Origin: an uncultured Oscillospiraceae bacterium
GTDB taxonomy: Bacteria; Bacillota; Clostridia; Oscillospirales; Oscillospiraceae
Assembly: GCA_934572335.1 (NCBI GenBank)
Contig: CAKTKU010000002.1
Location: forward strand, 58,945-122,944
DNA: 64,000 bases
Direction: 5' to 3'
The notes beneath the pieces were generated by a model. That model saw nothing but the letters and a program-made list of their open reading frames with translations. It was not told where the DNA came from and made no database searches. The translations under genes and the position numbers were made by a program. Positions 7,873 through 35,732 of the stretch are shown piece by piece; within the stretch, counting starts at the first letter, position 1, and the number at the start of each line of letters is the position of its first letter.

Positions 7873-7875
7873 GCG

Positions 7876-10350: not shown

Positions 10351-10369
10351 GGCTGTGTCCTCCCCGCTC

Positions 10370-11919: not shown

Positions 11920-12203
11920 AGCTTTCCCTCCGTTTGCTCATTTATGGCGGTATTTGCGCGATTTCACTTGATTAAAAATATCATATTCCAATATGCTTGT
12001 CAAATGTTACGGTAATATTGACGAAAAACAATGAAAATGTTATAAAGGAGCAGAGCTGTTTTCGACAGTTTGACAGCTGACAGAGCCTCAAGCCGGCAAT
12101 CATCTGGCTTATGATAATCAGTTTTGATTATATCTTGCTCGTTTTTTCCGCATTTCCTGCATATTTGCTCACCATATATATGCTATTCGGAGGGTTATCA
12201 TCC

Positions 12204-14974: not shown

Positions 14975-15036
14975 CAAGGTTCATTCGTGCGAAAGCACAT
15001 TGATAAAACACAAAAAACAAAAAAGGAGACCAGCAA

Positions 15037-16132: not shown

Positions 16133-16163
16133 AAAAGGCACACCCCGCGCGGGGTGTGCCTTT
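16133..16163. terminator. bidirectional intrinsic terminator
   Basis: Perfect palindrome AAAGGCACACCCCGCGCGGGGTGTGCCTTT between convergent genes. Confidence 0.65.
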
Positions 16164-16178
16164 ACCGTTTCTATGGTC

Positions 16179-16919
16179 TTACCACCACTTGATGGCATCC
16201 TCGACGTGCACGCGCTTTTCGATGAACTCGGGCGACGCGATGTCGCGCGGGCGCGGCATATCAAGGCGCAGGTCCTCTTTTATGCTCGCGGGCTTATTCG
16301 TGAGGATGAGCACTCTGTCGGCGAGATAGCACGCCTCTTCCACATTGTGCGTGATGAAGAGCACCGTGCTGCCAAGCTCCTGCCAGAGACGCACGACCTC
16401 GTCCTCAAGATAGAAGCGGGTCTTTATGTCCATCTGGCCGTAAGGCTCGTCCATCAGCAGGAGGTCGGGCTCCATCGCGAACGCGCGCCCGATGACGACC
16501 TTCTGCTCTGTGCTGACCGACAGCTCATGCGGATACTGCTTTCTGCTCTTTGTCAGCCCCATGAGCTCTATTATCTTGTCGGTCTGCTCCTTTATGCGCT
16601 TCTTCGGCCATCCCTTTATCTCCATGCCGAAAGCGATGTTATCCTCGACCGTGAGCCACGGCATTGCCGACGGCTCCTGAAAGACGAAGGAGAGATTGTG
16701 CTTGCGCGGGTCCGCCTTCTCGCCGTCGATGAGTATTTCGCCGGAGGTCGGCTCTATGAGGCAGGTGAGGGTGTTGAGAAACGTCGTTTTGCCGCAGCCG
16801 GTAGGACCGACGACACAGACGAACTCGCCCTTGCCTATATTGAAATTGCAGTTTTTCAAAACTTCGAGGGAGCCGAAGTTTTTGCAGAGGTTGCGTACCT
16901 CGACCTTGTACTCGCTCAT
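16179..16919 (-). CDS. ABC transporter ATP-binding protein (NitT/TauT family) with degenerate signature motif
   Basis: Walker A GPTGCGKTT, Walker B LLLMDEP, H-loop ITHN; the position of the LSGGQ signature reads LSVSTEQKV instead. Confidence 0.8.
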   Translation of the reverse strand: MSEYKVEVRNLCKNFGSLEVLKNCNFNIGKGEFVCVVGPTGCGKTTFLNTLTCLIEPTSGEILIDGEKADPRKHNLSFVFQEPSAMPWLTVEDNIAFGMEIKGWPKKRIKEQTDKIIELMGLTKSRKQYPHELSVSTEQKVVIGRAFAMEPDLLLMDEPYGQMDIKTRFYLEDEVVRLWQELGSTVLFITHNVEEACYLADRVLILTNKPASIKEDLRLDMPRPRDIASPEFIEKRVHVEDAIKWW

Positions 16920-16931
16920 TCTATCTTCACC

Positions 16932-17708
16932 TCATTCCAGCGTGAGCGCTTCGTTGGCTGCGATCTCCTGGCGGATGCGCATGAAGTCCTCGGACACGTG
17001 GCTTCTCGGTCTCTGGAGCGAGCTGAGATCGTACACGCGCTTGACCTTTGCCGGGCGCTCCGTGAACTGTATAATGCGGTCGCCGAGCGTGACGGCTTCC
17101 TCGATATTGTTCGTGACGAACACTATCGTGCGCTTTTCCGTCTGCCAGATGCGCAGTATCTCTTCCTCCATGGCGTAGCGCGTCTGCGCGTCGAGCGCGC
17201 CGAACGGCTCATCCATGAGGAGTATTTCGGGGTTTGCGGTGTACGCGCGCGCAATGCCGACGCGCTGCTTCATGCCGCCGGACAGCGCATGGGGATAGGC
17301 GTTTTCAAAGCCCTGAAGCCCGACGAGCTCAAGGTACTTCTGCGCCGCCGCGCGGCGCTCCGCCTTCGGCACGTTTCTGTATTTCAGCCCGAGCTCCGCG
17401 TTCTCCATGGCGGTCTTCCACTCGTAGAGACCGGTCTTCTGGAAGACCATCGCGATGCGGCTGTCAGTGCCGCTGATGGGCTTGCCGTTGAGCGTGATCG
17501 TGCCGGAGGTCGCCTTCACGAGCCCGGCGATGATGTTGAGAAACGTCGTCTTGCCGCACTGGCCGGGACCGAGCAGGACAAGAAACTCGTTCTCACGCAC
17601 ATCGATGGATATGTCCTCTATCGCGTCGGTATCTCCCTTGGACGAAAAGAACGTCTTTGCGATATGGTCAGCCTGCAGTATTATTTTCTCTTCCACGGAC
17701 ACAGCCAC
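16932..17708 (-). CDS. ABC transporter ATP-binding protein (NitT/TauT family), canonical
   Basis: Walker A GPGQCGKTT, canonical signature LSGGMKQRVGIARA, Walker B LLMDEPFGALD, H-loop VTNN. Confidence 0.85.
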   Translation of the reverse strand: MAVSVEEKIILQADHIAKTFFSSKGDTDAIEDISIDVRENEFLVLLGPGQCGKTTFLNIIAGLVKATSGTITLNGKPISGTDSRIAMVFQKTGLYEWKTAMENAELGLKYRNVPKAERRAAAQKYLELVGLQGFENAYPHALSGGMKQRVGIARAYTANPEILLMDEPFGALDAQTRYAMEEEILRIWQTEKRTIVFVTNNIEEAVTLGDRIIQFTERPAKVKRVYDLSSLQRPRSHVSEDFMRIRQEIAANEALTLE

Positions 17709-18481
17709 CTTTCCAAAAAGTCAAAGCCATAGGCGAACAGCGCGCCGAACGCGCCTATCATGACCATGCCGACAATGGCAAGCGTGAGGTCATTGGCGCT
17801 GCTGCCCTGCATGATGAGGAAGCCGATGCCCTCGCGCGCGCCGAGCATTTCCGACGCGAGCAGCACCATCCAGCCGCCGCCGAGCGCCGTGCGTATGCCG
17901 GCGAAAATGGCGTTGAGCGAACTGGGCAGGACGACATCAAAGAGCATATCCGTGCTCTTCGCGCCGAACACGCGGCCGACCTGAAAGTTTATCTCCGGCA
18001 CCATGATAACGCCGGAATACGAGTTGATGACGATGGGCATGAACACGCCCATTGTGATGATGGCGACGCGGGAGAACTCCGTCGTGCCGAACCACAGCGT
18101 GAAAAGCGGGACCCACGCGATGGGCGGGACGGGTCTGATGACCTCAAAAAGCGGTTTGAATATGGCGCGGAACATCTTGCTCCACCCCATGGCGATGCCG
18201 AAGGGCACGCCCACCACCACGGAGAACAGCAGCGCCGTGAGCACGCGGCGCATGGAGATCCACACGTGGTATATCATCGGGTGCTTGGCAACGTTGCCCG
18301 ACCAGATCGTTATCAGCCTTCTGAGCGAGGCGTAGGGGCTGGGCAGCTGGGTGGTGCCGGTGGCGGAGACGTTCTGCCACAGCAGCAGAAACGCCGCGAT
18401 GAGCAGATACGGCCCGATATAATATATAGTCTTATAGAGCGCGCTGCGGTTTTCCAGCAGCGGATTTTTCTTAGTTTTCAT
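17681..18481 (-). CDS. ABC transporter permease (NitT/TauT family, SsuC-like)
   Basis: 266 aa, 6 TM pattern, EAA-like loop; overlaps neighbours by a few nt. Confidence 0.8.
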   Translation of the reverse strand: MKTKKNPLLENRSALYKTIYYIGPYLLIAAFLLLWQNVSATGTTQLPSPYASLRRLITIWSGNVAKHPMIYHVWISMRRVLTALLFSVVVGVPFGIAMGWSKMFRAIFKPLFEVIRPVPPIAWVPLFTLWFGTTEFSRVAIITMGVFMPIVINSYSGVIMVPEINFQVGRVFGAKSTDMLFDVVLPSSLNAIFAGIRTALGGGWMVLLASEMLGAREGIGFLIMQGSSANDLTLAIVGMVMIGAFGALFAYGFDFLERWLCPWKRK

Positions 18482-19314
18482 TTTTTAGGTCTCCATTTCA
18501 ACACGACTCTCTCAACGAGTCCGACAATGCCGGATGAGATGAAGCCAAGTATGCCGATGACGATAATGCCCGCCATGATGAGGGACACGCTGCCGAAGGA
18601 GCGTCCCATCTGTATCATATAGCCGAGACCGTTGGACGAGGCGAGCATTTCTGCCGCGACGATAGTACCCCATGCGCTTCCCATTGAGGTTTTAAGCCCT
18701 GCAAATATCATGGGCATAGCGGAGGGAATGCCCACCTTGCAGAAAATCTTGAAGTTTCCGGCGCCGCAGGTCTTTGCGACATTTATGAGGGTCTGGTTTG
18801 TCGAGCGCACGCCGGTGTAGGTGTTGAGCACCGTGGCGACAAAGCACCCGGTAAATATGATGACGGACCTCGCCTCCACACCGATGCCGAGGAACAAGAG
18901 CACGATGGGTATCCATGCAAGGCTCGGTATAGGGCGCACCATCTCAAAAAGCGGGCGGATTATACGGTCGCAGAGGCGGAACCACCCCATGAAGAGACCG
19001 AGAGGTATCCCAATGACCGCCGCCAGAAGGAACCCGAGCCAGACGACCTTGGCGCTGGCCCAAATATGCTGGATGAGCACGCCGCCGTCGGGCTTTTTGT
19101 CCGTGACCTTTCTTGCGATGGTCTCAATGACGCCGACGGGCGAATCAAAAAATCTGGTGCTGACAAGGTGGAACTGAACGGCAAGCTGCCACACGAGCAG
19201 CACGAAGAGGACGACCACCACGCTGACGGTGAAGTACTTCATGCTCTCCCGGCGCATTGCCTTCGTTTCGGCGATGCGCGCTTCAGCCCGAATCTGTGCG
19301 TAATCTTTTTCCAT
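18478..19314 (-). CDS. ABC transporter permease (NitT/TauT family, SsuC-like), second copy
   Basis: 278 aa paralogue of the adjacent permease. Confidence 0.8.
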   Translation of the reverse strand: MEKDYAQIRAEARIAETKAMRRESMKYFTVSVVVVLFVLLVWQLAVQFHLVSTRFFDSPVGVIETIARKVTDKKPDGGVLIQHIWASAKVVWLGFLLAAVIGIPLGLFMGWFRLCDRIIRPLFEMVRPIPSLAWIPIVLLFLGIGVEARSVIIFTGCFVATVLNTYTGVRSTNQTLINVAKTCGAGNFKIFCKVGIPSAMPMIFAGLKTSMGSAWGTIVAAEMLASSNGLGYMIQMGRSFGSVSLIMAGIIVIGILGFISSGIVGLVERVVLKWRPKK

Positions 19315-19399
19315 AAAATGTTCTCCTATGTGCAGCTGATCCCATTCCCCGGTAATCCGGGGAATGGGACAAGACCGACATTTTCAGTCTTTCCGGGGA

Positions 19400-20551
19400 T
19401 CAAGCGGTATGGAGCTCCTTGTACATCTCGATGGCCTTGGCAAGGTAGCTGGAATCAACGGCTGCAAGGACCGCTTCGCGGTCGGCGGCATCGCGGTTGC
19501 CGATGGCGACCTGGATGTCAAAGAACGTGCCGAACTCATTCTGGAGCCCGGTGAGACCGTTCTCCTGAACCTCGCAGAGGTTCTCATAGAAGCTGAGATC
19601 GGGGAACATGGTCATCTTCTCGCTGGCAAGAGCGGCGTCAACGGTCGTCTCGGTGCCGAACTCGTCAAGCATGACCTGGGAGAACCACTCCGCGCCCTGC
19701 TCCTGGTTGGCGTTGTCCGCGCACCACAGCAGAACCTCAAGCGCGCCCTCGAGGTACTTCACAACGGTGTCCTCGTTCGCGGCGAGCCAATCGCCCTCGG
19801 CGATGATGTTGCCGGCCATTGCGGCGTTCATGCCGCCCATGGTGTGGCAGACGGTGTAGTTGGGATCCTCTTCAAGCATGGTGGTGTAGGTGCCGGAGAC
19901 AAAGATAACGTCGGCAGAGCCGCTGGTGAAGGCCTGATAGCCCTTGTCGATATCGGAGTTGACGATGTTGACGTCGTCCTCGGTGAGGCCGAGCTTGTCG
20001 AGCATGAACATGAGGTCAGCGTCGCACACGGTGCCGCGGCCGACGAGGATGGTGAGACCCTTCCAGTCGTCAGCGGAGCCGAGAGTCTCGGGGATCTCGC
20101 CCTCAGCCGCCTTAGCAAGCGCGCTGTCGGAGCGGCAGAAGGCCTTGTTGGAGTAGTCATAGCCGGAGAGGGAGATGACCTTCATGTTGTAGGTCAGCAC
20201 GCCGGTGATCGCCGCGGGAGCGCCGATCCAGCCGATGTCCCAGTCGCCGGAGGGGTTGGCCTCGAGCTGGGGAGGACCGGAGACATAGTGGGTGCGGGTG
20301 ACGTTGAGCCCGAGCTTCTCCCAGATGCCCATCTGCTCGCCCGCGATGAGGGGAACGGCTGTCTGGACAACGTTCTGGCCGGAGGTGGGCAGGTCGACCA
20401 TCTCAACGGGGGCTTCGGCGTCGGCATTGCCGGCGTCAGCCGCGGGGGCGTCGGTCTTGGTGTCGGCTGCGGGCTGGGAAGCGGTGCTTCCGCAGGCGCA
20501 GAGTGCAAATACCATGCACAGCGCCAAAACCAGTGCTAGGATTTTTTTCAT
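19400..20551 (-). CDS. ABC transporter substrate-binding lipoprotein (NMT1/SsuA-like, NitT/TauT family)
   Basis: ORF track begins at 20587; the ATG at 20551 gives MKKILALVLALCMVFALCACG (lipobox) with an AGGAGG RBS; Ala/Asp-rich linker then SBP domain. Confidence 0.75.
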   Translation of the reverse strand: MKKILALVLALCMVFALCACGSTASQPAADTKTDAPAADAGNADAEAPVEMVDLPTSGQNVVQTAVPLIAGEQMGIWEKLGLNVTRTHYVSGPPQLEANPSGDWDIGWIGAPAAITGVLTYNMKVISLSGYDYSNKAFCRSDSALAKAAEGEIPETLGSADDWKGLTILVGRGTVCDADLMFMLDKLGLTEDDVNIVNSDIDKGYQAFTSGSADVIFVSGTYTTMLEEDPNYTVCHTMGGMNAAMAGNIIAEGDWLAANEDTVVKYLEGALEVLLWCADNANQEQGAEWFSQVMLDEFGTETTVDAALASEKMTMFPDLSFYENLCEVQENGLTGLQNEFGTFFDIQVAIGNRDAADREAVLAAVDSSYLAKAIEMYKELHTA

Positions 20552-20608
20552 TTTTGGATTCCTCCTGTTTTTTATTTCGGCGGTCAATTTTACCGCGTAC
20601 TTACTTTT

Positions 20609-21550
20609 TTATTTCTGTGCCTGAGCGTAGGCTTCGAGGAAACGTGCGCAGAAGCTTTCCGTGACGGGCTCGCCCGCGTCCCACATTGCCTCGGCGGCAG
20701 CGCCGTATACCGGCGGCGCGTTTTGCAGCACGAGGTTTGCGCCCGGTGCGCTCTTCTGCTTTATCGCCTCAAAATACTCCGGGAAGTGGCTGACTATCCC
20801 GCCGCCCGCGACGACGTTGAATCCGCCGTCAAAGCTTGTCTGCGCGGCGTAGGTCAGATCCGCCATGAGCGCCGACTGGCGCTGGAATATCTCCTCGCAG
20901 ACGCGGTCGCCCATTCTGCGTCCGGCAAACACCGCCGCGGCAAACGACGCGATATACGGTCTCCCTCCGCGGTGCACCATCGGGATGACCCGGTCGTCCA
21001 CCGGGCAGCCGAGCATTTCGCCCAGCAGCTCCTGCAGCACGGTGCGCTCTATCCTGCCGTCCGCGGCGCGCAGTGCCATGCATATGGCGTCGCGCCCGAT
21101 CTCAAACCCGCTGCCGCCGGTGTCGATCATATAGCCCTTGCCGCCGATGTGGCGGAGCGGCTGTCCCTCGCGCCGGACGAAGAGCGAAGAGCCCGTCCCG
21201 CAGACCATCCCGCAGCCGTCGGCATGCCCGAACGCGCCGGAGATGAGGTTGCAGCCGTCGTCCTCGATGCGGATGCAGCGTATATCATAGCGCCGAGAGA
21301 TCTCGTCGGAGTATATGTCTCCATTGGGGAGCGTCCCCGCGATGCCGCCGTAGAGCGTTTCGACCGCGCCCCCGGCATTCCGGTACACCGCGTCGATGTC
21401 CTCCATCAGGCGTTTTCTCGCCTCGTCGCAGCCGATGTCGGTCGGGTTGTTGCCGGGACCTACGTGACGGGCGAGGATGTTCCCCTCCGTGTCGAAGAGC
21501 ACGGTGTCGGTCTTTGTCCCGCCGCCGTCAATGGCTATACAGTACTTCAT
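20609..21550 (-). CDS. BadF/BadG/BcrA/BcrD-type ATPase, N-acetylglucosamine-kinase-like sugar kinase (ASKHA fold)
   Basis: N-terminal IDGGGTKT phosphate-1 motif, GTGS, DTGGSG; 313 aa. Confidence 0.75.
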   Translation of the reverse strand: MKYCIAIDGGGTKTDTVLFDTEGNILARHVGPGNNPTDIGCDEARKRLMEDIDAVYRNAGGAVETLYGGIAGTLPNGDIYSDEISRRYDIRCIRIEDDGCNLISGAFGHADGCGMVCGTGSSLFVRREGQPLRHIGGKGYMIDTGGSGFEIGRDAICMALRAADGRIERTVLQELLGEMLGCPVDDRVIPMVHRGGRPYIASFAAAVFAGRRMGDRVCEEIFQRQSALMADLTYAAQTSFDGGFNVVAGGGIVSHFPEYFEAIKQKSAPGANLVLQNAPPVYGAAAEAMWDAGEPVTESFCARFLEAYAQAQK

Positions 21551-21565
21551 AAAACTCCCCCGCCT

Positions 21566-22987
21566 TTATTCGAGGTCTATTTTATACTCGCCCGGTATCG
21601 CCGCGGCCTCCGCGTCGTGCAGATAGAGATGATCCATCCTGCCCGGATAGTGCGGATGTGTCTTTGTGACCTTTTCGTATGTCACGCTGCTCCTGGTCTT
21701 GTTCACATCGCTGTTGATATATTCGTCGAGGAGCCGCTTCATCTCAGATACGGTCGGGTCTGCCGCGTCATAGCACTCGTGCTCCTCGGGAATATGGTCA
21801 AAGTAGAAGTATCTGTCCTCCGCGCGGCGGTATATGAGCTTGTGCGTGCCGTCTATTATCATATATGTGCCGACGTCGCCGCAGCCGTGCTGGGAATAGA
21901 CGTACTTTCTGCCGTTCTCGCCGAAGAGATCAACGCCGTCAAACTCATCCGCGTCGTACTTCGCGCCCGCGTAGTGCAGCAGCGTCGGGGCAATGTCCAC
22001 AAGGGAGCACACATCGCCGCTTCTTCCCGGCTCCGCGCCGGGGTATTTTATCATCAGCGGAACATGGCACGAGGAATCGACCATCGTGCGCTTTCCTATC
22101 GCGCCGTAGTCGCCCATCATGTCGCCGTGATCGCTGGAAAAGACGATGAGTGTATCGTCATACATGCCCTTGTCCTTGAGCGCCTTGATTATCCGCCCGA
22201 CCTGATAGTCCACGAACGACACGCAGGCATAGTAGAAGTTCTTGCTGCGCAGAACGTCCTGACGGCTCATGTCGAGGCGTCTGCACGAGCAGCGCTCGCC
22301 GATGAGCGAAGAGAAGCGCGCAAACTCCGCCTCCTCCGGCATGAACGGCGCGGGGGGATCATCGCGGTAGAGCTTCTGCCACGGGGAGGGCGGGCAGTAG
22401 GGCGGGTGCGGATGGATGAACGAGGAGAAGAGGAACATGGGCTTGTCGGAGGAGTAGTTCTCTATATACTCAACGCTCTTGCTGCCCACCCACTGCGTCG
22501 GGTGATCCTCGGGTGCAAGCTGAGAGATCTGCGGCATGTAGTACATTTCACTGCGCATGCCGTTGTAGTCGAACACCCACGGGTATTTCGCGCGGATGAA
22601 CTCCATATACTCGTCGCCCTCGGCGGCAAGCTCCTCCTGCGAGTGGCGCTTTTCAAAGCCGATGTCGCCATAAGCGTCCCACAGATAGTGCATCTTCCCG
22701 ACGCAGCAGCTGTCATAGCCCTGCGCCGTTATGCGCGAATAGAAGCCCTCTCCGTCATAGCATTTTTCGGTGTTGTTGTTGTTGCAGCCGGTTCTGGCCG
22801 GGTACTGCCCCGAAAACAGCGACAGCCGCGCCGGGACGCACACCGGCGACGGCGTGACGCAGCTGTCAAAGCAGACGGAATCCCGCGCGAGCGCGTCGAG
22901 ATTCGGCGTCTGGATATGCGTGTTCCCGAACGCCCCGATAGTGTCATATCGCTGCTGGTCGGTAAAGAGGATCAAAATATGCTTCAT
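21566..22987 (-). CDS. Cys-type sulfatase (formylglycine-dependent, alkaline-phosphatase superfamily), no signal peptide
   Basis: Sulfatase signature CVPARLSLFSGQYPARTG (C-x-P-x-R), N-terminal ILILFTDQQRYD metal-binding region; ORF may extend to ATG at 23005, but the 22987 ATG (MKHILILF) is better placed. N-terminus is not signal-peptide-like. Confidence 0.85.
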   Translation of the reverse strand: MKHILILFTDQQRYDTIGAFGNTHIQTPNLDALARDSVCFDSCVTPSPVCVPARLSLFSGQYPARTGCNNNNTEKCYDGEGFYSRITAQGYDSCCVGKMHYLWDAYGDIGFEKRHSQEELAAEGDEYMEFIRAKYPWVFDYNGMRSEMYYMPQISQLAPEDHPTQWVGSKSVEYIENYSSDKPMFLFSSFIHPHPPYCPPSPWQKLYRDDPPAPFMPEEAEFARFSSLIGERCSCRRLDMSRQDVLRSKNFYYACVSFVDYQVGRIIKALKDKGMYDDTLIVFSSDHGDMMGDYGAIGKRTMVDSSCHVPLMIKYPGAEPGRSGDVCSLVDIAPTLLHYAGAKYDADEFDGVDLFGENGRKYVYSQHGCGDVGTYMIIDGTHKLIYRRAEDRYFYFDHIPEEHECYDAADPTVSEMKRLLDEYINSDVNKTRSSVTYEKVTKTHPHYPGRMDHLYLHDAEAAAIPGEYKIDLE

Positions 22988-23038
22988 GCTCCGCCTGTCT
23001 CCCATAGTCTAATGAATTCCAGAGTTTGTTTCGTTTTT

Positions 23039-23062
23039 CTTTCAAAACGAAAGTTGATTATT
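23039..23062. promoter_or_regulatory. perfect 9-bp inverted repeat TTTCGTTTT-N6-AAAACGAAA, candidate operator
   Basis: Seen in the divergent intergenic region between the sulfatase and DeoR genes. Confidence 0.4.
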
Positions 23063-23207
23063 GCGTTTCAAAAAGTATGTATATATAATATATTTTGCGG
23101 TCCGTTTTGTAAAGTGGCCGATTTGATGAAAAAATTGAAGTGTTTTTGTGAAAGTTACACATAGTTTTTGTGGATGTTTTAACGTTCTCCGCGGCTTTTT
23201 TCGCAAG

Positions 23208-23236
23208 TTGACAATTACGGAGAGAAACATTATAAT
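23208..23236 (+). promoter_or_regulatory. sigma-A promoter, consensus TTGACA-17-TATAAT, upstream of DeoR regulator
   Basis: TTGACA at 23208-23213, 17-nt spacer, TATAAT at 23231-23236; ATG of the regulator at 23286. Confidence 0.6.
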
Positions 23237-23285
23237 GAACAGCGTCGATTTGACCAAAAATCTGTTTAACGAAAGCTGATATATA

Positions 23286-24038
23286 ATGGGAAAAAGCATT
23301 GGAGACCGCCGACAGGAGATACTTGACCTTGTGAACCATTACGGTTCCCTCGACTTCTCTCAGCTCCGCGAGAGGTTCCCCGGCGTGTCGGACGTCACAC
23401 TGAGAAAGGACCTTCAGTTTCTTGACGACACCCGGCAGGCCATACGCACCCACGGCGGCATCAAGTCCATCCCCTCCGCGCTCAACTACTATTACCGCTC
23501 CAACGTCAACCACGTCCTGAAAAAAATGATTGCGGCAAAGGCCTCCGCCCTCATAAAGCCGGGGGATTCCATCTTCATCTCCGCCGGGACGAGCTGTGCA
23601 GAGCTTGCCCGCTGCCTCCCCGTCTTCCCGCTGAAGGTTTGCAGCGACGGGGTGTACACCGTCAGCAATATCTCCACGCTGCCGAGCATATCCGTGCAGC
23701 TGCTTGGCGGGGATGTCGATCTGAACATCATGCGTGTGGAGGGCATCTCCGCACTCGACCAGCTCGACAGCTGTCACTTCTCGCTCGCTTTCATGAGCGC
23801 GCTGTCGCTCGACCCGAACTACGGCTTTGCGCACAACAGCGCGATGACCGTCGCCATCCTTGAAAAGGTCATCGCCCATTCGGACAAAACCGCCGTCCTG
23901 CTCGACTCCACCAAGGCGCGCGGCGGCTTCTACCCGCACATGGTGCCGCTCTCCTCGGTTGATATTCTCGTCACGGACGACGCTTTTCCCCCCGCCACGG
24001 CGGAGCTTCTGCGGGAAAAGGGCATAGAGATAATCTGA
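23286..24038 (+). CDS. DeoR/GlpR-family transcriptional regulator
   Basis: N-terminal HTH (RRQEILDLVNHYGSLDFSQLRERFPGVSDVTLRKDLQFL) plus DeoR C-terminal domain; 250 aa. Confidence 0.85.
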   Translation: MGKSIGDRRQEILDLVNHYGSLDFSQLRERFPGVSDVTLRKDLQFLDDTRQAIRTHGGIKSIPSALNYYYRSNVNHVLKKMIAAKASALIKPGDSIFISAGTSCAELARCLPVFPLKVCSDGVYTVSNISTLPSISVQLLGGDVDLNIMRVEGISALDQLDSCHFSLAFMSALSLDPNYGFAHNSAMTVAILEKVIAHSDKTAVLLDSTKARGGFYPHMVPLSSVDILVTDDAFPPATAELLREKGIEII

Positions 24039-24113
24039 AATATACACGCAAAAAATCCCGGATAATGCCGAATACGAAGCATTATCCGGGAATTTGTCGT
24101 TTTCACGCACGGA

Positions 24114-25229
24114 TCAGCGTTTTCTCTTCGCGGCGATTCCCTCCGCCATTTTCCGCATACGCTCCGCGGAGTAGGCAAAGAACGCCTCATAGCAGCCGCA
24201 CCATTTGTTCACCGCGGGTATGCCGGCGTCGAGCGGCTCGCGCTCGCGGCGGCAGCCGTTTCTGCACAGGGCGTACCATCTGCACGCCCGGCACTTCTCC
24301 GGCACGGGCAGCGAGTCCGCCACAAAGCGCTCGCCCACGGGCGAGCCCGCCAATTTGAAAAACGAGCTGTCGTTTATATTGCCGAGCTTCCACTCGTCCA
24401 GCACATAGAAATCGCAGGGGTAGACGCTGCCGTCCGCCTCTATGAGGTAGTACCTGCCGCAGCGCCCGCACATCCCGCAGTTTTCCGGCTGCTGCCCGAG
24501 GAGGATGGAGAGGTAGTTGTCAAAGTTCCGTATGCTCACGGGACGTCCCGCCGCATACGCCGCGTAGTACATATCAAAGCTCTTTTTCAGAAAGCTCAGG
24601 TACTCGTCCGGCGTGAGCGAATATTCCGCCTTCGTGCCGTCCAGATGGTCAAGGCACGGGATGTACTGGATATACCCATAGCGCGCGAGGCTTTCAAAGC
24701 ACTCCTCCGGGTGGGCGGCGACGTCGGAATTGACAACGCAGAGAATGTTGAAGTCGATGCCGCGCTGCTCCAGCTTTTTCAGCGTTGCCTCCACCCGCTC
24801 CGCTGTGCCGTTCCCTGCCGCGTCCCGGCGGTATTTATCGTGCAGCGCCGCCGTGCCGTCAAACGACACGCCGAGGAGAAAATTCTCCCGCGCGAAGAAG
24901 TCCAGCAGCTCATCGCTGATATTATATCCGTTCGTCTGCAAGGAATTGTGGATCGTCAGTCCCTTGGAGTTGTAGCGCTTTTCAAGCTCAACAAGCTTCT
25001 GAAAAAAGCCAAGCCCCGCGAGCGTCGGCTCGCCGCCCTGAAAGGCAAAGGATATTTCCCTGTCCGCGTATGCCGCGGCGCGGCGCACGATGTTGTCCAG
25101 CGTCGCCTCCGACATACGCCCGAGGTCGGCGTGCTCGCGGTTTTCCGCCACGTCCGTATAAAAGCAGTAGCGGCAGCGCATATTGCACAGCGCAGACACG
25201 GGCTTTATCATTATCGACAGCGGCGGCAT
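24114..25229 (-). CDS. anaerobic sulfatase-maturating enzyme (radical SAM, SPASM domain)
   Basis: CNMRCRYC radical-SAM cluster motif near the N-terminus; two C-terminal SPASM Cys clusters (CGMCGRCGRY...PCDF and CRACRWYALCRNGC); 371 aa. Confidence 0.85.
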   Translation of the reverse strand: MPPLSIMIKPVSALCNMRCRYCFYTDVAENREHADLGRMSEATLDNIVRRAAAYADREISFAFQGGEPTLAGLGFFQKLVELEKRYNSKGLTIHNSLQTNGYNISDELLDFFARENFLLGVSFDGTAALHDKYRRDAAGNGTAERVEATLKKLEQRGIDFNILCVVNSDVAAHPEECFESLARYGYIQYIPCLDHLDGTKAEYSLTPDEYLSFLKKSFDMYYAAYAAGRPVSIRNFDNYLSILLGQQPENCGMCGRCGRYYLIEADGSVYPCDFYVLDEWKLGNINDSSFFKLAGSPVGERFVADSLPVPEKCRACRWYALCRNGCRREREPLDAGIPAVNKWCGCYEAFFAYSAERMRKMAEGIAAKRKR

Positions 25230-25242
25230 TTCGTTTCTCCTC

Positions 25243-27168
25243 TCAGCTTATTTTCAGCGTCTCCCACAGGGAGTTGACATAGTCGAGCATGGCGCTGTCG
25301 AGCGTGCGGTAGGCATACTCGTTATAGAGCGCAGCAAAGTCGTCTATCTCCGGATATAGTATATCCATTGCGTCCTCGCCCATGTCGTCGATGTACCCCT
25401 CGTCGGTATACACCGCGGAGTTGGGGGAGGCGTAGCAGATATACTCCGCGTTCGCGATCGCGGGCTCGGGCGAGAGCATATAGTTGATGAATATCTCGGC
25501 GAGCTCCTTATTCTGCGCGCAGCTTGGGATGCACATGGCGTCGATGAAGTAGTTCGTGCGCTCGGGGTAATAGAACCGGAGGTCAACGCCGTCCGCCTGC
25601 GCGTCGAGCATGGTGAAGTAGTCCCCCGCGTAGTATGCCGCTATCGCCGCCTCGCCGGACTCCATCATATTATATACCTCGTCCATGACGTAGCTCTTCA
25701 CGAGCGGGGACTGGCGCTTGAGTTCTGCGAGCGCAGCGTCCCACTCGGCGCGGTCGGTGCTGTTGACATCGAGACCGAGCTTATACTGCGCCGTGGCAAA
25801 GGCGTCGCGGGAGTTGTTGAATTGCAGTATCTCCCCGGCGTATTTGTCGTTCCACATGAGGTCCCAGTCGTCCGCGTCCGCCTGGTCGACGACCGCGGCG
25901 TTATAGATTACGCCGACAACGCCGTAGGTATACGGCACGGTGTACATATCTTCCGGGTCATAGTAAAGCCCGTGGAAGCTCTCGTCGATATTTTCGTAGT
26001 TCGGGATATTGTCAAAGTCGAGCGGGAGGAGCATGCCCTCATCCTTCATGCGCGCGATCATATAGTCCGACGGGATGACCACGTCAAAGCTCACAGCGCC
26101 GGAGGAGAGCTTTGCATACATATCCTCGTTGCTGGCAAAGGTGGTGTAGTTGACCTTGACCTTCCGGCCGTAGGTCTCCTCATACCACTGCTCGAACGCC
26201 TTGATGGTGTTGAGCGAGTCGTCCGACCCGTCGGAGATGTATTCGCCCCAGTTGTAGACGTTCAGCTGCTGCGTGCCGTTGCCCGCGAGGATGAGCACCG
26301 CGATGCCCGCCGCGGCGAGCACCACGCCGATAACACCCGCCGCCACACGCTCGGAGCGTCTGCGCTCGCGCTTGGCCTTCTTGGGCTTCGCGTCGTCGTC
26401 GACAAGGTTCGTGAGGATCAGAAGAGCGAGGATGACGAAGAATATGATGGTCGCCAGCGCGTACATCTTCGGCGTGACGGTCTTTTTCGTCATGCTGTAT
26501 ATGCGTATGGGCAGCGTTTCAAACCCGTTGCCGGAGGTGAAGTAGCTGATGACAAAGTCGTCGAGCGAGAGCGTGAACGCCATGATGAAGCCAGTGACGA
26601 CGCCCGGCATTATCTCCGGGATCTCCACCTTCATGAACGCCTGCACCGGCGTGCAGCCGAGGTCCATCGCCGCCTCCGGCAGCGCCCTGTCCATCTGGCG
26701 GAGCTTGGGCAACACCTGCAGAATGACATACGGCAGGCAGAACGTCACGTGCGCGATGAGCATCGTCCAGAAGCTCAGACTCGTCGCCGCGCCGAACAGC
26801 CGCCCCACGAACACGAACATCAGCATCAACGATATGCCGGTGATGATGTCCGGGTTTATCATGGGAATATTCGTGACGGTGTCCATCGCCGCGCGCATCG
26901 CGCGGTTGCGGAGCTTGTTTATACCCACGGCAGCCGCCGTGCCCATGACGGTGGAGATCACCGCCGCGCACAGTGCGAGCACGAGGGTGTTGCGCACCGC
27001 GCCCAGCGTCTCCGCGTCGCGGAACAGCTCCCTGTACCAGTTGAGCGAGAAGCCGGAGAACACGGAGAGGCTCTTCGCCTCATTGAACGAGAACACCAGA
27101 AGTATCGCGATGGGCGCGAAGAGGAAGAGCATTATCAGCGCCGTATATACCTTGGACATTTTTTTCAT
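25243..27168 (-). CDS. PotC-like ABC permease fused to PotD-like periplasmic substrate-binding domain
   Basis: N-terminal roughly 250 aa permease with EAA-like loop; Lys/Arg-rich linker; extra TM helix (VAAGVIGVVLAAAGIAVLILAG); then about 340 aa SBP domain. Confidence 0.75.
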   Translation of the reverse strand: MKKMSKVYTALIMLFLFAPIAILLVFSFNEAKSLSVFSGFSLNWYRELFRDAETLGAVRNTLVLALCAAVISTVMGTAAAVGINKLRNRAMRAAMDTVTNIPMINPDIITGISLMLMFVFVGRLFGAATSLSFWTMLIAHVTFCLPYVILQVLPKLRQMDRALPEAAMDLGCTPVQAFMKVEIPEIMPGVVTGFIMAFTLSLDDFVISYFTSGNGFETLPIRIYSMTKKTVTPKMYALATIIFFVILALLILTNLVDDDAKPKKAKRERRRSERVAAGVIGVVLAAAGIAVLILAGNGTQQLNVYNWGEYISDGSDDSLNTIKAFEQWYEETYGRKVKVNYTTFASNEDMYAKLSSGAVSFDVVIPSDYMIARMKDEGMLLPLDFDNIPNYENIDESFHGLYYDPEDMYTVPYTYGVVGVIYNAAVVDQADADDWDLMWNDKYAGEILQFNNSRDAFATAQYKLGLDVNSTDRAEWDAALAELKRQSPLVKSYVMDEVYNMMESGEAAIAAYYAGDYFTMLDAQADGVDLRFYYPERTNYFIDAMCIPSCAQNKELAEIFINYMLSPEPAIANAEYICYASPNSAVYTDEGYIDDMGEDAMDILYPEIDDFAALYNEYAYRTLDSAMLDYVNSLWETLKIS

Positions 27169-27184
27169 TACGCCTTGCCTCCTC

Positions 27185-28051
27185 TCACGCTGCCGTGCGC
27201 CGCGCGGCGGCGTGCTGCATCAGCGCCATGCATGCCAGCAGTATCACCATCAGTATGAACGCGATCGCCGCGGCAAAGTGCAGGTTGTTGGCAACGTACT
27301 GTCCCTCTATCGCGTCGCCGATGAGGTAGAACTTGCCGTTGCCGAGCTTCTGGGAAATATAGAACGTGGAGATGGACGGGATGAGCACCATGTTGATGCC
27401 GGAGATAACGCCCGGCAGGCTCAGCGGCCATATCACGCGGCGCAGCACACCCGCACTGTTGCAGCCGAGGTCGCGCGCCGCTTCGATGAGGCGCGTGTCC
27501 ATCTTCGCCATGATGGAGTATATCGGCAGTATCATATACGGGAAGTAGTCATACACCATGCCGATCACGACTGCCGCCTCCGTGCCGATGACATGGATGC
27601 GCCCCAGCCCCAGCGCGGAGAGAAAGCCGTTGAGAATGCCGGTGTCCTGCAAGATGGTCATCCATGCGTATGTGCGGATGAGAAAGTTCATCCACATGGG
27701 GATCATGATGAGCGTTATCATTATCTTCTGCGCTCTCGCCTCGGCGCGGGCGATGATGTACGCCATGGGGTAGCCGAGGATGAGGCAGATGAGTGTGGAG
27801 ATCACGGCGAGCTTCAGCGAGCGCAGGAAGATGACGATATATGTGCGCACCTCGCCCGCGTCCGTCGCCGAGGTCGCGGTGAAAAACCGTGCGACGTTGT
27901 CGAACGTAAAATTGAAGCTGTTGTCGGTAAAGGCGTAGTACGCCACGAAGAAAAGCGGCACCACGATGAACAGCACCGCCCACACCGAGTACGGCGCGAG
28001 AGTCAGCCGCTGGATAAGCCCCGCGCGGCGGGCATTGGCATTTGCGTTCAT
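27185..28051 (-). CDS. PotB-like ABC transporter permease
   Basis: 288 aa, 6 TM, EAA loop. Confidence 0.8.
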
Positions 28052-29166
28052 TCTTCGCTCTCACTTTCCGCGTCGCTCAGCTCGTCGAGCTCATTGGAGA
28101 AGGACGAGTAGTCGCCGTACATGCCGGAGTATTCGGATTTCTTCATTATATGTATCGCGTCCGGCTCGATGTAGAGCCCGATATGCTCGTCCACATCCAC
28201 AAAATCCGTGGTCTGGATCATCCACTTGAAGCCGTTGATGTCCACGATTATCTCATAGTGCACGCCGAGGAACGTCACAGACGTGACGACGCCGCGCAGC
28301 ATGCCGCGCTCCTCCGGCACGATGTCCACATCCTCCGGGCGTACGACGACGTCCACCGCCTCGCGCTTTTCAAAGCCGAAGTCGACGCACTCGAACGTAT
28401 GTCCGGAAAACGCGACCTTGTAGTCCGCGAGCATAACGCCGTCGACAATGTTGCTCTCGCCGATGAAGTCCGCCACGAAGGCGTTCTGCGGCTCGTTATA
28501 TATATCAATGGGCGTGCCTATCTGCTGGATGCGTCCCTCGGACATGACGACCACGGTGTCGGACATGCTCAGCGCTTCCTCCTGGTCGTGCGTGACGAAC
28601 ACGAAGGTTATCCCCGTCGCCTTCTGTATCTTTTTCAGCTCCGCCTGCATGTCCTTTCGCAGCTTCAGGTCGAGCGCCGCCAGCGGCTCGTCCAGCAGCA
28701 GGACCTTCGGGCTGCTTATGAGCGCGCGCGCGATGGCGACGCGCTGCTGCTGTCCGCCGGAAAGGCTCGTTACGCTGCGGTTTTCAAACCCCGTCAGCGC
28801 GACCATCGCCAGCATCTCCTGCACGCGCGCGGCTATCTCCTCGCGCGCTACCTTCTTCTCTCTCAGCGGGAAGGCGACGTTTTCATAGACGTTCAGGTGC
28901 GGGAAGAGGGCGTAGCGCTGGAAAACGGTGTTGACATTGCGCTTGTAGGGCGGCACATCGTTTATTCTCTCGCCCATGAACACAACGTCGCCGCTGTCGG
29001 GCGTCTCGAACCCGCCGATGAGGCGCAGCGTCGTGGTCTTGCCGCAGCCGGAGGGACCGAGCAGCGTGATGAACTCATTGTCGTAAATGTCCAGACTGAT
29101 GTTGTCCAGCACGGTCTCTCCATCAAAGGATTTTGTGATGTTTTTCAGCTCGATGATTTTTTTCAT
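28048..29166 (-). CDS. PotA-like ABC transporter ATP-binding protein with TOBE domain
   Basis: Walker [10 protein letters not shown], signature [15 protein letters not shown], Walker [13 protein letters not shown]-loop VTHD; acidic C-terminal tail. Confidence 0.85.
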
Positions 29167-29188
29167 GTTCTTTCACCCCGGAAGCAAA

Positions 29189-29218
29189 AATGACGCATGC
29201 ACAATTGCATACGTCATT
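29189..29218. promoter_or_regulatory. near-perfect 30-bp palindrome AATGACGCATGCACAATTGCATACGTCATT followed by a T-run, about 20 nt upstream of the potA-like start
   Basis: Full dyad symmetry including the CAATTG centre suggests an operator. In RNA it could also fold as a hairpin plus U-tract (attenuator) immediately before the RBS. Confidence 0.4.
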
Positions 29219-29565
29219 TGTTCAGCAGGTATAGAACACCCCCGGCAAGCGTGCGCTGGGTCTCCTATCCCAATTGGTTTGAGAGTCTATATAGCAAGAA
29301 ACTACTTTTACTACTCTTATTGACCATTTCACAAGTTTGTATGCTGTGCAGCACTGGTTTATAGTAACCAACTTATAAAATTTGAGCCCTTTTGCTGAGC
29401 CCACGCGGGGAGCGCCCCGCTAAATCAATAAGGCAACAGAAGTTGCCGCCGCATTCCGCGGAAAATCGGCATTCGACCCGGCTGTCCGTGTGGCCTTGGC
29501 TGCGCTTATGGCACAGCGGTCGTCATCTTGCTTCGGATATATCGACTATCCAATTGAGATGCTTT

Positions 29566-29594
29566 ATTCTAACAACATTCTCCCTGTATGTCAA
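29566..29594 (-). promoter_or_regulatory. candidate sigma-A promoter TTGACA-17-TAGAAT at the far end of the 470-bp region upstream of the potA-like gene
   Basis: Would give an unusually long (about 390 nt) leader. Confidence 0.35.
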
Positions 29595-29634
29595 CAATAA
29601 TTTTCACATTTTTCGCGCGTTCCCGCGCGGCGGC

Positions 29635-35727: not shown

Positions 35728-35732
35728 TTTCT

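What the first reader, a model, noticed from the sequence alone, without database searches (positions are those of the whole stretch)
16179..29634. Import-desulfate-phosphorylate locus: cytoplasmic Cys-type sulfatase + anSME + GlcNAc-kinase-like enzyme embedded between two ABC importers
On one strand a sulfatase (CVPAR motif, no signal peptide), a BadF-type N-acetylglucosamine-kinase-like ATPase and a complete NitT/TauT (sulfonate/taurine-family) ABC importer form one tightly packed 6.8-kb operon (22987 down to 16179; gaps of 21 nt or less, or overlaps). A DeoR regulator is transcribed divergently from a consensus promoter. The anaerobic sulfatase-maturating enzyme is the last gene of the adjacent PotA-PotB-PotC/D-fusion transporter operon (13-nt gap). 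Both the sulfatase and its maturase lack export signals, so the substrate must be taken up as a sulfated small molecule and desulfated in the cytoplasm before the kinase can act (a 6-O-sulfate would block 6-phosphorylation). Gut Bacteroidetes sulfatases are exported. A cytoplasmic sulfatase hard-wired to two ABC importers and a kinase in a Clostridia-like genome is, to my knowledge, not a characterised pathway. The Pot-like and NitT/TauT-like transporters may not carry polyamines or sulfonates here.
Basis: partly seen in the sequence, partly recalled or inferred. Interest (0 to 1): 0.62.

Follow-up and report, generated by a model that had tools for sequence, protein, structure and literature searches.

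The report
Cytoplasmic sulfated-sugar catabolism island
A 9-kb accessory gene block in a gut Clostridia genome appears to import a small sulfated sugar-like molecule, remove its sulfate inside the cell and phosphorylate it; the principle is known, but this enzyme set is uncharacterised and its substrate is unknown.

Summary
The interpretation needs three corrections. (1) A sister-species contig runs from the potCD stop codon straight into the ABC genes beyond the locus. Window 16164-25242 is therefore one indel block: the anSME belongs to it and the Pot transporter is only a neighbour. (2) In species with an orthologous sulfatase (at least 60% identity) the kinase (11/14) and DeoR (12/14) are conserved, while importer families are swapped. 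An AraM-like glycerol-1-phosphate-dehydrogenase-family gene, with or without an arabinose-5-P-isomerase-like SIS gene, often sits in the same operon. In the window these two genes lie at 8992-10978, outside the reported coordinates. (3) The sulfatase is closest to BT1918 (S1_46, GlcNAc-3-sulfatase) but carries the Y94N/N174E/R327G signature of a clade whose substrate is published as unidentified. No NagA/NagB was seen in the annotated loci. GlcNAc-6-sulfate is therefore not favoured. Import-then-desulfate precedents exist (B. breve, Pseudomonas AtsRBC/AtsA). Verdict: real, conserved, a new variant of a known kind.

The parts
16164..25242 (.). Accessory block ('island') present in the window and absent from the sister-species contig L097. 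It holds the anSME, DeoR, sulfatase, kinase and NitT/TauT ABC genes.
   Evidence: blastn of the window against L097: L097 3-4107 matches window 29344-25243, and L097 4125-11414 matches window 16163-8936. Junction sequences are shown. GC is 58.3% against 59.0% for the window.
24114..25229 (-). Anaerobic sulfatase-maturing enzyme (radical SAM/SPASM). It converts Cys56 of the sulfatase to formylglycine.
   Evidence: TIGR03942 364.1 bits (cut-off 349.45); Pfam Radical_SAM plus SPASM; CX3CX2C at residues 15-22. It has its own RBS (GAGGAG), 13 nt after the potCD stop. An anSME lies next to the sulfatase, TauE or G1PDH-like gene in relatives.
24056..24091 (.). Strong bidirectional terminator hairpin between the 3' ends of deoR and the anSME gene.
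   Evidence: 14-bp stem followed by a T-run.
23286..24038 (+). DeoR-family regulator of the island.
   Evidence: HTH_DeoR plus DeoRC. Best NCBIfam hit is AgaR at 104 bits, below the cut-off. It is conserved next to the sulfatase in 12 of 14 orthologous loci.
23006..23285 (.). Divergent control region. It contains the deoR promoter TTGACA-17-TATAAT (23208-23236, +), the sulfatase promoter TTTACA-17-TATTAT (23113..23085, -), and the candidate operator inverted repeat TTTCGTTTT/AAAACGAAA (23029-23052).
   Evidence: Promoter scan, repeats, and conservation of both promoters and of TTTCGTTT in five species.
21566..23005 (-). Cytoplasmic Cys-type formylglycine (S1) sulfatase, S1_46-like, of the Y94N/N174E/R327G type.
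   Evidence: Pfam Sulfatase. The CVPAR motif cysteine (C56) is invariant across the family alignment. Best solved structure is 7OZ8 = BT1918 (176 bits; 34% identity). The BT1918-type metal-site residues Q268 and H293 are invariant.
20609..21550 (-). BadF/NAGK-family (ASKHA) sugar kinase. It forms a distinct subfamily with an invariant GYLIDTGGSG loop.
   Evidence: It is adjacent to the sulfatase in 11 of 14 orthologous loci.
19400..20551 (-). Lipoprotein substrate-binding protein of the NitT/TauT (SsuA/TauA/NMT1) type.
   Evidence: NMT1 25.6 bits and SsuA_fam 46 bits. Lipobox LCAC. 76-86% identical in relatives.
19315..19399 (-). Structured spacer between the SBP and permease genes.
   Evidence: MFE -43.9 kcal/mol, z = -4.73, with no U-tract.
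16179..19314 (-). Two TauC-like permeases (18478-19314, 17681-18481) and two ATPases (16932-17708, 16179-16919).
16137..16160 (.). Ancestral bidirectional terminator hairpin. It now ends the sulfatase operon and is homologous to the hairpin after potCD in L097.
10370..10978 (-). Single-domain SIS sugar-phosphate isomerase (arabinose-5-P-isomerase-like). Probable downstream enzyme, encoded outside the island.
   Evidence: KpsF/GutQ 150 bits; PDB 3fxa 250 bits. It lies inside the sulfatase operon in L005, L006 and L008.
8992..10350 (-). AraM-like glycerol-1-phosphate-dehydrogenase-family enzyme (452 aa, N-terminal CxCGxxH). Probable downstream dehydrogenase.
   Evidence: Fe-ADH_2; G1PDH model 179 bits (cut-off 413); PDB 9h4x 144 bits. 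It is next to the kinase, sulfatase, anSME or TauE in L005-L008, L010, L012, L092, L116, L121, L131, L133 and L135.

Best explanation
Window 16164-25242 is a self-contained accessory catabolic island for a small sulfated carbohydrate, either a monosaccharide or a sugar alcohol, and probably not N-acetylated.

Proposed sequence of events:
1. A lipoprotein SBP of the sulfonate/taurine (NitT/TauT) type captures the anionic substrate, and the 2-permease/2-ATPase ABC importer brings it in intact.
2. The anSME, encoded in the same island, oxidises Cys56 of the signal-peptide-less S1 sulfatase to formylglycine. The matured enzyme removes the sulfate in the cytoplasm.
3. The BadF/NAGK-family kinase phosphorylates the freed sugar.
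4. The phospho-intermediate is the likely inducer for the DeoR repressor, which binds the conserved TTTCGTTTT/AAAACGAAA repeat.
5. An AraM-like G1PDH-family dehydrogenase and an arabinose-5-P-isomerase-like SIS enzyme carry the product into central metabolism. In this genome they are encoded 5 kb away, under a second DeoR regulator and beside an AEP-type ABC importer.

The Pot transporter is not part of the system.

Shown here: gene identities, the cytoplasmic location, the island boundaries, and conservation of the sulfatase-kinase-DeoR core and its recurrent partners. Inferred: the order of the reactions, the role of the dehydrogenase and isomerase, the effector, and the class of substrate.
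For: -
- There is no signal peptide: the alignment to BT1918 starts at residue 6, and orthologues begin at the first beta-strand.
- The island is a single indel relative to L097.
- The identical island is present in other human-gut samples.
- The core is conserved only among orthologues: kinase 11/14, DeoR 12/14, PotCD 0/80.
- Gene order is permuted, and importer families are exchanged around the same sulfatase-kinase pair: NitT/TauT, TctABC, Opp-type and CUT1.
- SIS and the G1PDH-like gene lie in the same operon in L005, L006 and L008. The kinase-G1PDH adjacency is seen in L010/L089 and L092.
- In a metagenome scan seeded with the G1PDH-like protein, all 6 loci carrying a kinase at 39% identity or more also carry a sulfatase.
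- A TauE-type anion exporter and an anSME lie next to the sulfatase in many relatives, which fits sulfate being released in the cytoplasm.
- The promoters and the operator repeat are conserved.
- Published precedents for importing and then desulfating exist.
Against: - There are no biochemical data for any member of the family, and the substrate is unknown.
- In the window, SIS and the G1PDH-like gene have their own regulator. They lack the island's operator motif.
- G1PDH-like genes also occur without sulfatases, with AEP-type ABC importers or in a PTS context. Their link to the island could therefore be indirect.
- Only 6 of 14 orthologous loci show a G1PDH-like gene within 10 kb. Others carry AP_endonuc_2 or HAD genes instead.
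- Partner sulfatases in multi-sulfatase loci are nearest to GlcNAc-6-sulfatases. This keeps an amino-sugar substrate possible, although their recognition triad is not conserved.
- The neighbourhood analysis rests on tblastn with fixed thresholds, on contigs that are sometimes truncated.
Confidence: 0.6

Rival explanations
1. GlcNAc-6-sulfate (or Gal-6-sulfate) is taken up by two cooperating ABC importers (NitT/TauT-like and Pot-like), desulfated at O6, and then phosphorylated at O6 by a GlcNAc kinase.
For: - The kinase belongs to the NAGK/MurK/hexokinase branch.
- B. breve uses GlcNAc-6-S through a cytoplasmic sulfatase.
- Some relatives pair this sulfatase with a sulfatase nearest to S1_11 GlcNAc-6-sulfatases.
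- In B. thetaiotaomicron, S1_46 and S1_11 act in sequence on 3S,6S-GlcNAc.
Against: - The Pot operon lies outside the indel and is never linked to the sulfatase elsewhere.
- The nearest characterised sulfatase is a 3-O-sulfatase, not a 6-O-sulfatase.
- The residues that contact the N-acetyl group and the sugar ring are replaced: Y94N, R143 to A/S, N174 to E/D, R327G, and no equivalent of Y408. The authors of the S1_46 study consider such sequences to have an unidentified substrate.
- The NagK equivalog model scores 70 bits against a cut-off of 370, and the sugar-binding loop differs.
- No NagA/NagB appears in the annotated loci.
- The S1_11 triad D/R/H is G/G/R in the partner sulfatase.
Confidence: 0.12
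2. A sulfur-scavenging system of the Ats type. Sulfate esters are imported and hydrolysed only to supply sulfate, as with AtsRBC/AtsA of Pseudomonas, and the kinase is incidental.
For: It has the same transporter family and a cytoplasmic Cys-type sulfatase.
Against: - The regulator is a sugar-phosphate-type DeoR, not CysB or Cbl.
- The kinase is adjacent to the sulfatase across phyla and across gene rearrangements.
- Dehydrogenase, isomerase or epimerase genes share the operon in relatives.
- TauE-type exporters beside the sulfatase suggest disposal of the anion rather than a need for it.
Confidence: 0.08
3. A desulfation system for non-carbohydrate host or dietary conjugates (aryl, steroid or bile-acid sulfates, or choline-O-sulfate). 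The kinase and neighbouring enzymes would be unrelated.
For: NCBIfam arylsulfatase (252 bits) and choline-sulfatase (208 bits) models are the best hits, both below their cut-offs. Choline sulfatases are the second-best solved structures.
Against: - The sulfatase-kinase-DeoR core is conserved.
- The best structural relative is a carbohydrate sulfatase that shares the unusual Q/H metal site.
- No betaine, steroid or aromatic catabolic genes were seen in any annotated locus.
Confidence: 0.07

Closest known systems
Bifidobacterium breve UCC2003 GlcNAc-6-sulfate cluster (Bbr_0851 transporter, Bbr_0852 sulfatase, Bbr_0853 anSME/AtsB)
   Same: A Gram-positive gut bacterium takes up a free sulfated monosaccharide and desulfates it inside the cell with an anSME-matured sulfatase. 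It uses the sugar as a carbon source.
   Different: - B. breve uses a secondary 'glucose/fructose transport protein' rather than a NitT/TauT ABC system.
- Its cluster has no BadF kinase or G1PDH-like gene.
- Its downstream route is NagA/NagB, whose double mutant abolishes growth. NagA/NagB were not seen at any annotated locus of this family.
- The substrate of the present island is unknown.
Pseudomonas aeruginosa AtsRBC sulfate-ester ABC transporter with cytoplasmic arylsulfatase AtsA
   Same: An ABC importer for aromatic and aliphatic sulfate esters is coupled to a cytoplasmic Cys-type S1 sulfatase. That AtsRBC belongs to the sulfonate-type transporter family, and that AtsA is cytoplasmic, are from my own knowledge of Hummerjohann 2000 and Beil 1995.
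   Different: - Ats is a sulfur-starvation (cys regulon) system in an aerobe, with aerobic FGly formation.
- Here the block has an anSME, a sugar kinase and a DeoR regulator, and points to carbon catabolism.
BT1918 of Bacteroides thetaiotaomicron (SulfAtlas S1_46, exo GlcNAc-3-O-sulfatase; PDB 7OZ8)
   Same: It is the best solved relative: 176 bits, and 34% identity over 385 aligned positions. It shares the atypical metal-site residues Q292 and H318, and it acts at the monosaccharide level.
   Different: - BT1918 is a periplasmic Ser-type enzyme.
- Its sugar-contact residues Y94, R143, N174, R327 and Y408 are not conserved here.
- The window enzyme matches the Y94N/N174E/R327G group listed in the S1_46 table, which includes Anaerotruncus sp. 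CAG:390 and Kiritimatiella. The substrate of that group is stated to be unidentified.
AraM (glycerol-1-phosphate dehydrogenase) and AraL (HAD phosphatase) of the Bacillus subtilis ara operon
   Same: A G1PDH-family dehydrogenase sits inside a sugar-utilisation operon. In relatives it is accompanied by HAD, class II aldolase/epimerase and FGGY kinase genes.
   Different: - The protein here is 452 aa, with an N-terminal CxCGxxH motif and a C-terminal extension.
- It scores 179 bits against a cut-off of 413 for the G1PDH model.
- Its linkage to sulfatases has not, to my knowledge, been described.

Membership tests
S1 formylglycine-dependent sulfatases | Sulfatase fold plus the C/S-X-P-X-R motif and metal-binding residues. 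| tested here: met
   Pfam PF00884 at 149 bits; C56-V-P-A-R60. The cysteine C56 is invariant in 23 sequences. D16/Q17 and D292/H293 are conserved.
SulfAtlas subfamily S1_46 | Closest to BT1918, and shares its atypical metal site (Q292 and H318). | tested here: met
   7OZ8 is the best PDB hit. It was identified as BT1918 from residue numbering. Q268 and H293 are invariant.
SulfAtlas subfamily S1_46 | BT1918-type GlcNAc recognition residues (Y94, R143, N174, R327, Y408). | tested here: not met
   These positions are N, A/S, E (HMMER) or D (MAFFT), G, and none. This pattern equals the Y94N/N174E/R327G group in the published S1_46 table.
SulfAtlas subfamily S1_46 | Formal assignment by SulfAtlas HMMs or phylogeny. 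| not testable with these tools
   No SulfAtlas profiles are available here.
Anaerobic sulfatase-maturing enzyme (anSME) | Radical SAM CX3CX2C motif, SPASM domain, and a score above the curated equivalog cut-off. | tested here: met
   TIGR03942 at 364.1 bits, above 349.45. PRK13758 at 399.8 bits, below 441. Radical_SAM plus SPASM domains; C15/C19/C22.
NitT/TauT ABC importers (taurine, sulfonate, nitrate) | TauC/SsuC-type permeases, TauB-type ATPases and an SsuA/TauA/NMT1-type SBP. | tested here: inconclusive
   The best hits are all from this family (TauC 155/149 bits, TauB 220 bits, SsuA_fam 46 bits, NMT1 25.6 bits), but every equivalog cut-off is missed. This supports family-level membership only, with no substrate assignment.
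N-acetylglucosamine kinase (NagK/NAGK) | Score above the NagK equivalog cut-off, and a conserved GWG..GD(E/D)GS sugar loop. | tested here: not met
   NF046058 at 69.7 bits against a cut-off of 370. The loop is GGKGYMIDTGGSG in the window protein, and its YxIDTGGSG core is kept across the sulfatase-linked kinases. The protein is a member of the wider BcrAD_BadFG sugar-kinase fold (78 bits, above 31.5).
PotABCD polyamine importer (as part of the system) | Co-inheritance with the sulfatase block. | tested here: not met
   The Pot operon is present without the island in L097. PotCD is found in 0 of 80 sulfatase loci. The PotD domain scores 192-195 bits against Gram-positive PotD. The WxEY, S..Y, D257 and Y293 positions are kept, and D168N, E171D, W229Y and W255F are changed.
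Glycerol-1-phosphate dehydrogenase (AraM/EgsA) | Score above the equivalog cut-off. | tested here: not met
   NF002022 at 178.8 bits against 413. This is family-level similarity only. The substrate was not tested.
Arabinose-5-phosphate isomerase (KpsF/GutQ/KdsD) | SIS domain plus tandem CBS domains, and a score above the cut-off. | tested here: not met
   TIGR00393 at 150.5 bits against 203.7. The protein is 202 aa with an SIS domain only. It is closest to the single-domain SIS protein 3fxa.
Ats-type sulfur-scavenging system | Control by sulfur starvation (CysB/Cbl regulon). | not testable with these tools
   Only the presence of a DeoR regulator and a sugar kinase argues against it.

The most novel reading that the evidence does not exclude
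The island and the adjacent AEP-type-ABC/DeoR2/SIS/G1PDH module together define an undescribed route in gut Clostridia. In this route the sulfate ester (through sulfatase plus kinase) and the phosphate ester (imported directly) of the same polyol or sugar converge on an AraM-like dehydrogenase. If so, it would supply the missing substrate for the divergent Y94N/N174E/R327G clade of S1_46 sulfatases. It would also give the AraM-like G1PDH family a catabolic role.
Probability: 0.3. Interest if true: 0.7.

Novelty: new variant of a known kind. Interest (0 to 1): 0.52.

Why it matters
Work on sulfated host and dietary glycans in the gut has centred on exported Bacteroidota sulfatases. This block indicates that many gut Clostridia carry a compact, exchangeable cassette for scavenging a free sulfated sugar-like molecule and desulfating it in the cytoplasm. 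These include Oscillospiraceae, Hungatella and Lachnospiraceae, and the cassette also occurs in Sphaerochaetaceae. It probably supports cross-feeding on products released by primary degraders.

The cassette offers a concrete set of genes (SBP, sulfatase plus anSME, kinase, dehydrogenase) with which to identify the substrate of an S1_46 clade that the literature calls unidentified. It may also explain why AraM-like enzymes sit in sugar operons.

The comparison with L097 also shows that close spacing alone can mislead. The anSME looks like the last pot gene only because the island was inserted at the potCD stop codon.

Tried and rejected
- **Pot transporter as a second importer.** Rejected on the L097 colinearity and on 0/80 co-occurrence.
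- **GlcNAc catabolism.** I looked for NagA/NagB in the Pfam-annotated relatives and found none.
- **S1_11-like partner sulfatases as evidence for 6S-gluco substrates.** Their recognition triad is not conserved, so they give no support.
- **Transfer of BT1918 specificity.** Rejected after residue mapping.
- **A 689-aa ORF after the G1PDH-like gene in L005.** It is an antisense artefact.
- **A shared operator between the island and the SIS/G1PDH promoter.** Not found.
- **Literature searches for this gene combination.** Nothing specific was found. A 2026 paper lists an S1_46 sulfatase in a Gram-positive mucin forager as neither differentially transcribed nor detected by proteomics.
- **UniProt accession mapping to the S1_46 table through cluster members.** This failed.
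- **Structure prediction.** Not run. The outputs (fold neighbours only) would not discriminate between substrates.

Full report
**Observation**

The minus strand from 23005 to 16179 encodes the following genes.
- A 479-aa sulfatase: Pfam Sulfatase 149 bits, with C56-V-P-A-R60.
- A 313-aa BcrAD_BadFG-family ATPase. Its best solved relatives are the broad-specificity hexokinase of S. tokodaii and the MurNAc/GlcNAc kinase MurK.
- A lipoprotein substrate-binding protein of the NMT1/SsuA type.
- Two TauC-like permeases and two ATPases.

A DeoR regulator (23286-24038) is transcribed divergently from a 12/12 consensus promoter at 23208-23236. The sulfatase has a TTTACA-17-TATTAT promoter at 23113..23085. 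The anSME (24114-25229) passes the TIGR03942 cut-off and starts 13 nt after the stop of a PotC-PotD fusion gene.

The sulfatase has no room for a signal peptide. Its alignment to BT1918 begins at residue 6, against residue 25 of the Bacteroides chain. Orthologues begin directly with MKHILILFTDQQR.

One stated detail is wrong. The SBP-permease gap is 85 nt and folds into a strong hairpin (z = -4.7). The kinase-SBP gap is 57 nt from the lipoprotein ATG.

**The island**

A human-gut metagenome contig from a sister species (L097, about 86% nucleotide identity) is colinear with the window from 29344 down to 25243. That stretch runs through the potCD stop codon. After 17 nt, L097 continues at window 16163 and runs down to 8936.

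In L097 the potCD stop is followed by a terminator hairpin. In the window the same stop is followed by GAGGAG-N7-ATG of the anSME, and the homologous hairpin now sits after the last ATPase gene, at 16137-16160.

Window 16164-25242 is therefore one 9.08-kb indel. It carries the anSME, DeoR, the sulfatase, the kinase and the ABC importer. The anSME is an island gene that became the apparent last gene of the pot operon through the insertion. A strong bidirectional terminator (24056-24091) separates it from deoR.

The identical island occurs in other human-gut assemblies, including a Hadza sample. It contains no integrase, and its GC content is unremarkable.

**Conservation**

A scan of one genome per GTDB species returned 80 loci. 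I annotated them by tblastn.

| Sulfatase identity | Loci | Kinase within 10 kb | DeoR | NitT/TauT SBP | G1PDH-like | SIS | AP_endonuc_2 | HAD | TauE | anSME |
|---|---|---|---|---|---|---|---|---|---|---|
| at least 60% | 14 | 11 | 12 | 7 | 6 | 3 | 5 | 3 | 3 | 2 |
| 47-60% | 37 | 4 | 2 | 0 | 2 | 0 | 5 | 0 | 3 | 4 |
| below 47% | 29 | 0 | 0 | 0 | 0 | 0 | 1 | 0 | 0 | 1 |

PotCD was found in none of the 80 loci.

Gene order is permuted between species: sulfatase first, sulfatase last, or kinase after the ATPases. The importer is replaced by a TctABC system (L093/L094, L092), by an Opp-type ABC (Hungatella, L085), or by a CUT1 ABC (Sphaerochaetaceae, L087).

The stable core is sulfatase plus kinase plus DeoR. 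Uptake is modular. Both promoters are conserved in five species, as is an inverted repeat, TTTCGTTTT/AAAACGAAA, between the sulfatase promoter and the start codon. This repeat is a candidate DeoR operator.

**Missed partners**

In the closest relatives the operon continues with two further genes. One encodes a 202-aa SIS protein. The other encodes a 452-aa member of the glycerol-1-phosphate dehydrogenase (AraM/EgsA) family.
- In L005 the order is sulfatase-kinase-SIS-G1PDH.
- In L006 and L008 the pair follows the ATPases.
- The kinase-G1PDH pair is also adjacent in L089/L010 and in a Lawsonibacter locus. That locus holds an anSME, TctABC and five sulfatases.

In the window these genes lie at 10978..10370 and 10350..8992. 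They follow a second DeoR gene (11919..11158), which is divergent from an AEP/PhnS2-type ABC importer at 12111-16110. L097 has that module without the island.

A metagenome scan seeded with the G1PDH-like family shows three contexts.
- After AEP-type ABC genes, together with a HAD, a second paralogue and a class II aldolase (L101-L115).
- Beside a PTS-type regulator and a ribulose-phosphate 3-epimerase (L144).
- Beside sulfatase, kinase, anSME or TauE genes (L116, L120, L121, L125, L131, L133, L135, L165).

All six loci from that scan that carry the kinase also carry a sulfatase.

This pattern suggests that the dehydrogenase acts on a phosphorylated polyol or sugar that can be produced in several ways. 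The sulfatase plus the kinase would be one of them. This is an inference. In the window the pair has its own regulator and lacks the island's operator motif.

**Substrate**

The closest solved structure is 7OZ8 (176 bits). Five residue numbers from the paper map onto it with one constant offset, which identifies it as BT1918. BT1918 is the S1_46 exo GlcNAc-3-O-sulfatase.

Identity is 34%. The unusual metal-site residues of BT1918 (Q292 and H318) are invariant in the window family. The sugar and N-acetyl contacts are not:
- Y94 is replaced by N.
- R143 is replaced by A or S.
- N174 is replaced by E or D.
- R327 is replaced by G.
- Y408 has no equivalent.

The published S1_46 table contains exactly this Y94N/N174E/R327G group, with Anaerotruncus sp. 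CAG:390, a Spirochaete and Kiritimatiella among its members. The authors state that gut sequences with such changes may target an as yet unidentified substrate.

Other evidence points the same way.
- The kinase fails the NagK equivalog model.
- It replaces the GWG..GD(E/D)GS loop with GGKGYMIDTGGSG, and the YxIDTGGSG core of that loop is kept across the sulfatase-linked kinases.
- No NagA/NagB was seen in the annotated loci.
- Partner sulfatases in multi-sulfatase loci are nearest to S1_11 GlcNAc-6-sulfatases, but they lack the D/R/H triad.

I therefore do not favour GlcNAc-6-sulfate. I cannot name the substrate. The absence of glycoside hydrolases suggests a free monosaccharide-sized molecule.

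**Comparison with known systems**

Importing a substrate and then desulfating it is established.
- B. breve UCC2003 grows on GlcNAc-6-S with a transporter/sulfatase/anSME cluster and requires NagA.
- P. aeruginosa couples the AtsRBC sulfate-ester ABC transporter to cytoplasmic AtsA for sulfur supply.

The present island differs from both in several respects.
- It has a sulfonate-type ABC importer in an anaerobe.
- It has a dedicated BadF-type kinase and a DeoR regulator.
- It shows a recurrent link to an AraM-like dehydrogenase.
- Its sulfatase comes from an uncharacterised S1_46 clade.

My searches found no description of this combination. A 2026 study of a Gram-positive mucin forager lists an S1_46 sulfatase that was neither differentially transcribed nor detected by proteomics under the conditions tested.

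The PotD domain resembles Gram-positive polyamine-binding proteins (192-195 bits). Four of its canonical residues show conservative changes. It gives no reason to connect it with sulfated substrates.

**Verdict**

The finding is a new variant of a known kind of system, of moderate interest. Its main value is as a tractable gene set for identifying an unknown sulfated substrate.

Noticed in passing
window 8992-16110: This is a second module: an AEP/PhnS2-type ABC importer (12111-16110, +) divergent from DeoR2, an SIS isomerase and an AraM-like G1PDH-family dehydrogenase. The same ABC type followed by a G1PDH-like gene, with a HAD, a second paralogue and a class II aldolase, is common in human-gut contigs (L101-L115). 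Its function is unknown; it may be uptake of a phosphorylated polyol or sugar.
   Followed up: partly
window 19315-19399 (-): The 85-nt spacer between the SBP and the first permease gene folds into GC-rich hairpins (-43.9 kcal/mol, z = -4.7) with no U-tract. It may be an intra-operon mRNA stabiliser that raises SBP expression.
   Followed up: partly
window 23029-23052 and 23268-23280: The inverted repeat TTTCGTTTT/AAAACGAAA lies downstream of the sulfatase promoter, and TTTCGTTT is invariant in five species. A related AACGAAAG lies just before deoR. These are a candidate operator and a possible autoregulation site.
   Followed up: partly
L008 2000-8800; L095 14650-21400; L120 2000-9000: Relatives carry a paralogous cassette: a NitT/TauT-type ABC, a BadF kinase and a 495-515-aa sulfatase. 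The sulfatase is nearest to S1_11 GlcNAc-6-sulfatases, but its D/R/H triad is replaced by G/G/R. The cassette is often adjacent to the S1_46-like one.
   Followed up: partly
L089 19570-20352; L095 11486-12268; L133, L135, L121: A TauE/SafE-type anion exporter gene sits next to the sulfatase, anSME or G1PDH-like gene in many relatives. It is absent from the window. It may export the released sulfate.
   Followed up: no
L165 1-21248: One contig holds two clusters side by side. The first has a sulfatase, BadF kinase, AP_endonuc_2, G1PDH paralogue and ribulose-phosphate 3-epimerase, with a CUT1 SBP. The second has a G1PDH-like gene, a HAD, a glycerophosphodiester phosphodiesterase, an FGGY kinase, a type I phosphodiesterase and a CUT1 ABC.
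   Followed up: no
window 25243-27168 (PotC-PotD fusion): The PotD domain keeps the WxEY, S..Y, D257 and Y293 positions. It has D168N, E171D, W229Y and W255F relative to E. coli PotD numbering (residue roles recalled from the literature).
   Followed up: partly
window 8992-10350 and homologues: The G1PDH-like family has an invariant N-terminal C-x-C-G-x-x-H motif and a C-terminal extension of about 140 aa beyond the part that aligns to canonical G1PDH (query residues 32-303).
   Followed up: no
window 16173-17732 (+), 20723-23164 (+): Long ORFs (519 and 813 aa) lie antisense to the ABC and sulfatase genes. They are GC-content artefacts, not genes.
   Followed up: yes
window 1-8900 and 33356-41000: The upstream flank encodes an SDR, an OYE/Pyr_redox_2 reductase, a PucR-type regulator, two ORFs with no Pfam match (3457-4788, 6241-7413) and SpoVAD. 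The downstream flank holds a shikimate-pathway cluster: an ORF at 33356-34630 that looks like a shikimate dehydrogenase/kinase fusion (read from its sequence, not run against Pfam), EPSP synthase, prephenate dehydrogenase and DAHP synthase.
   Followed up: no
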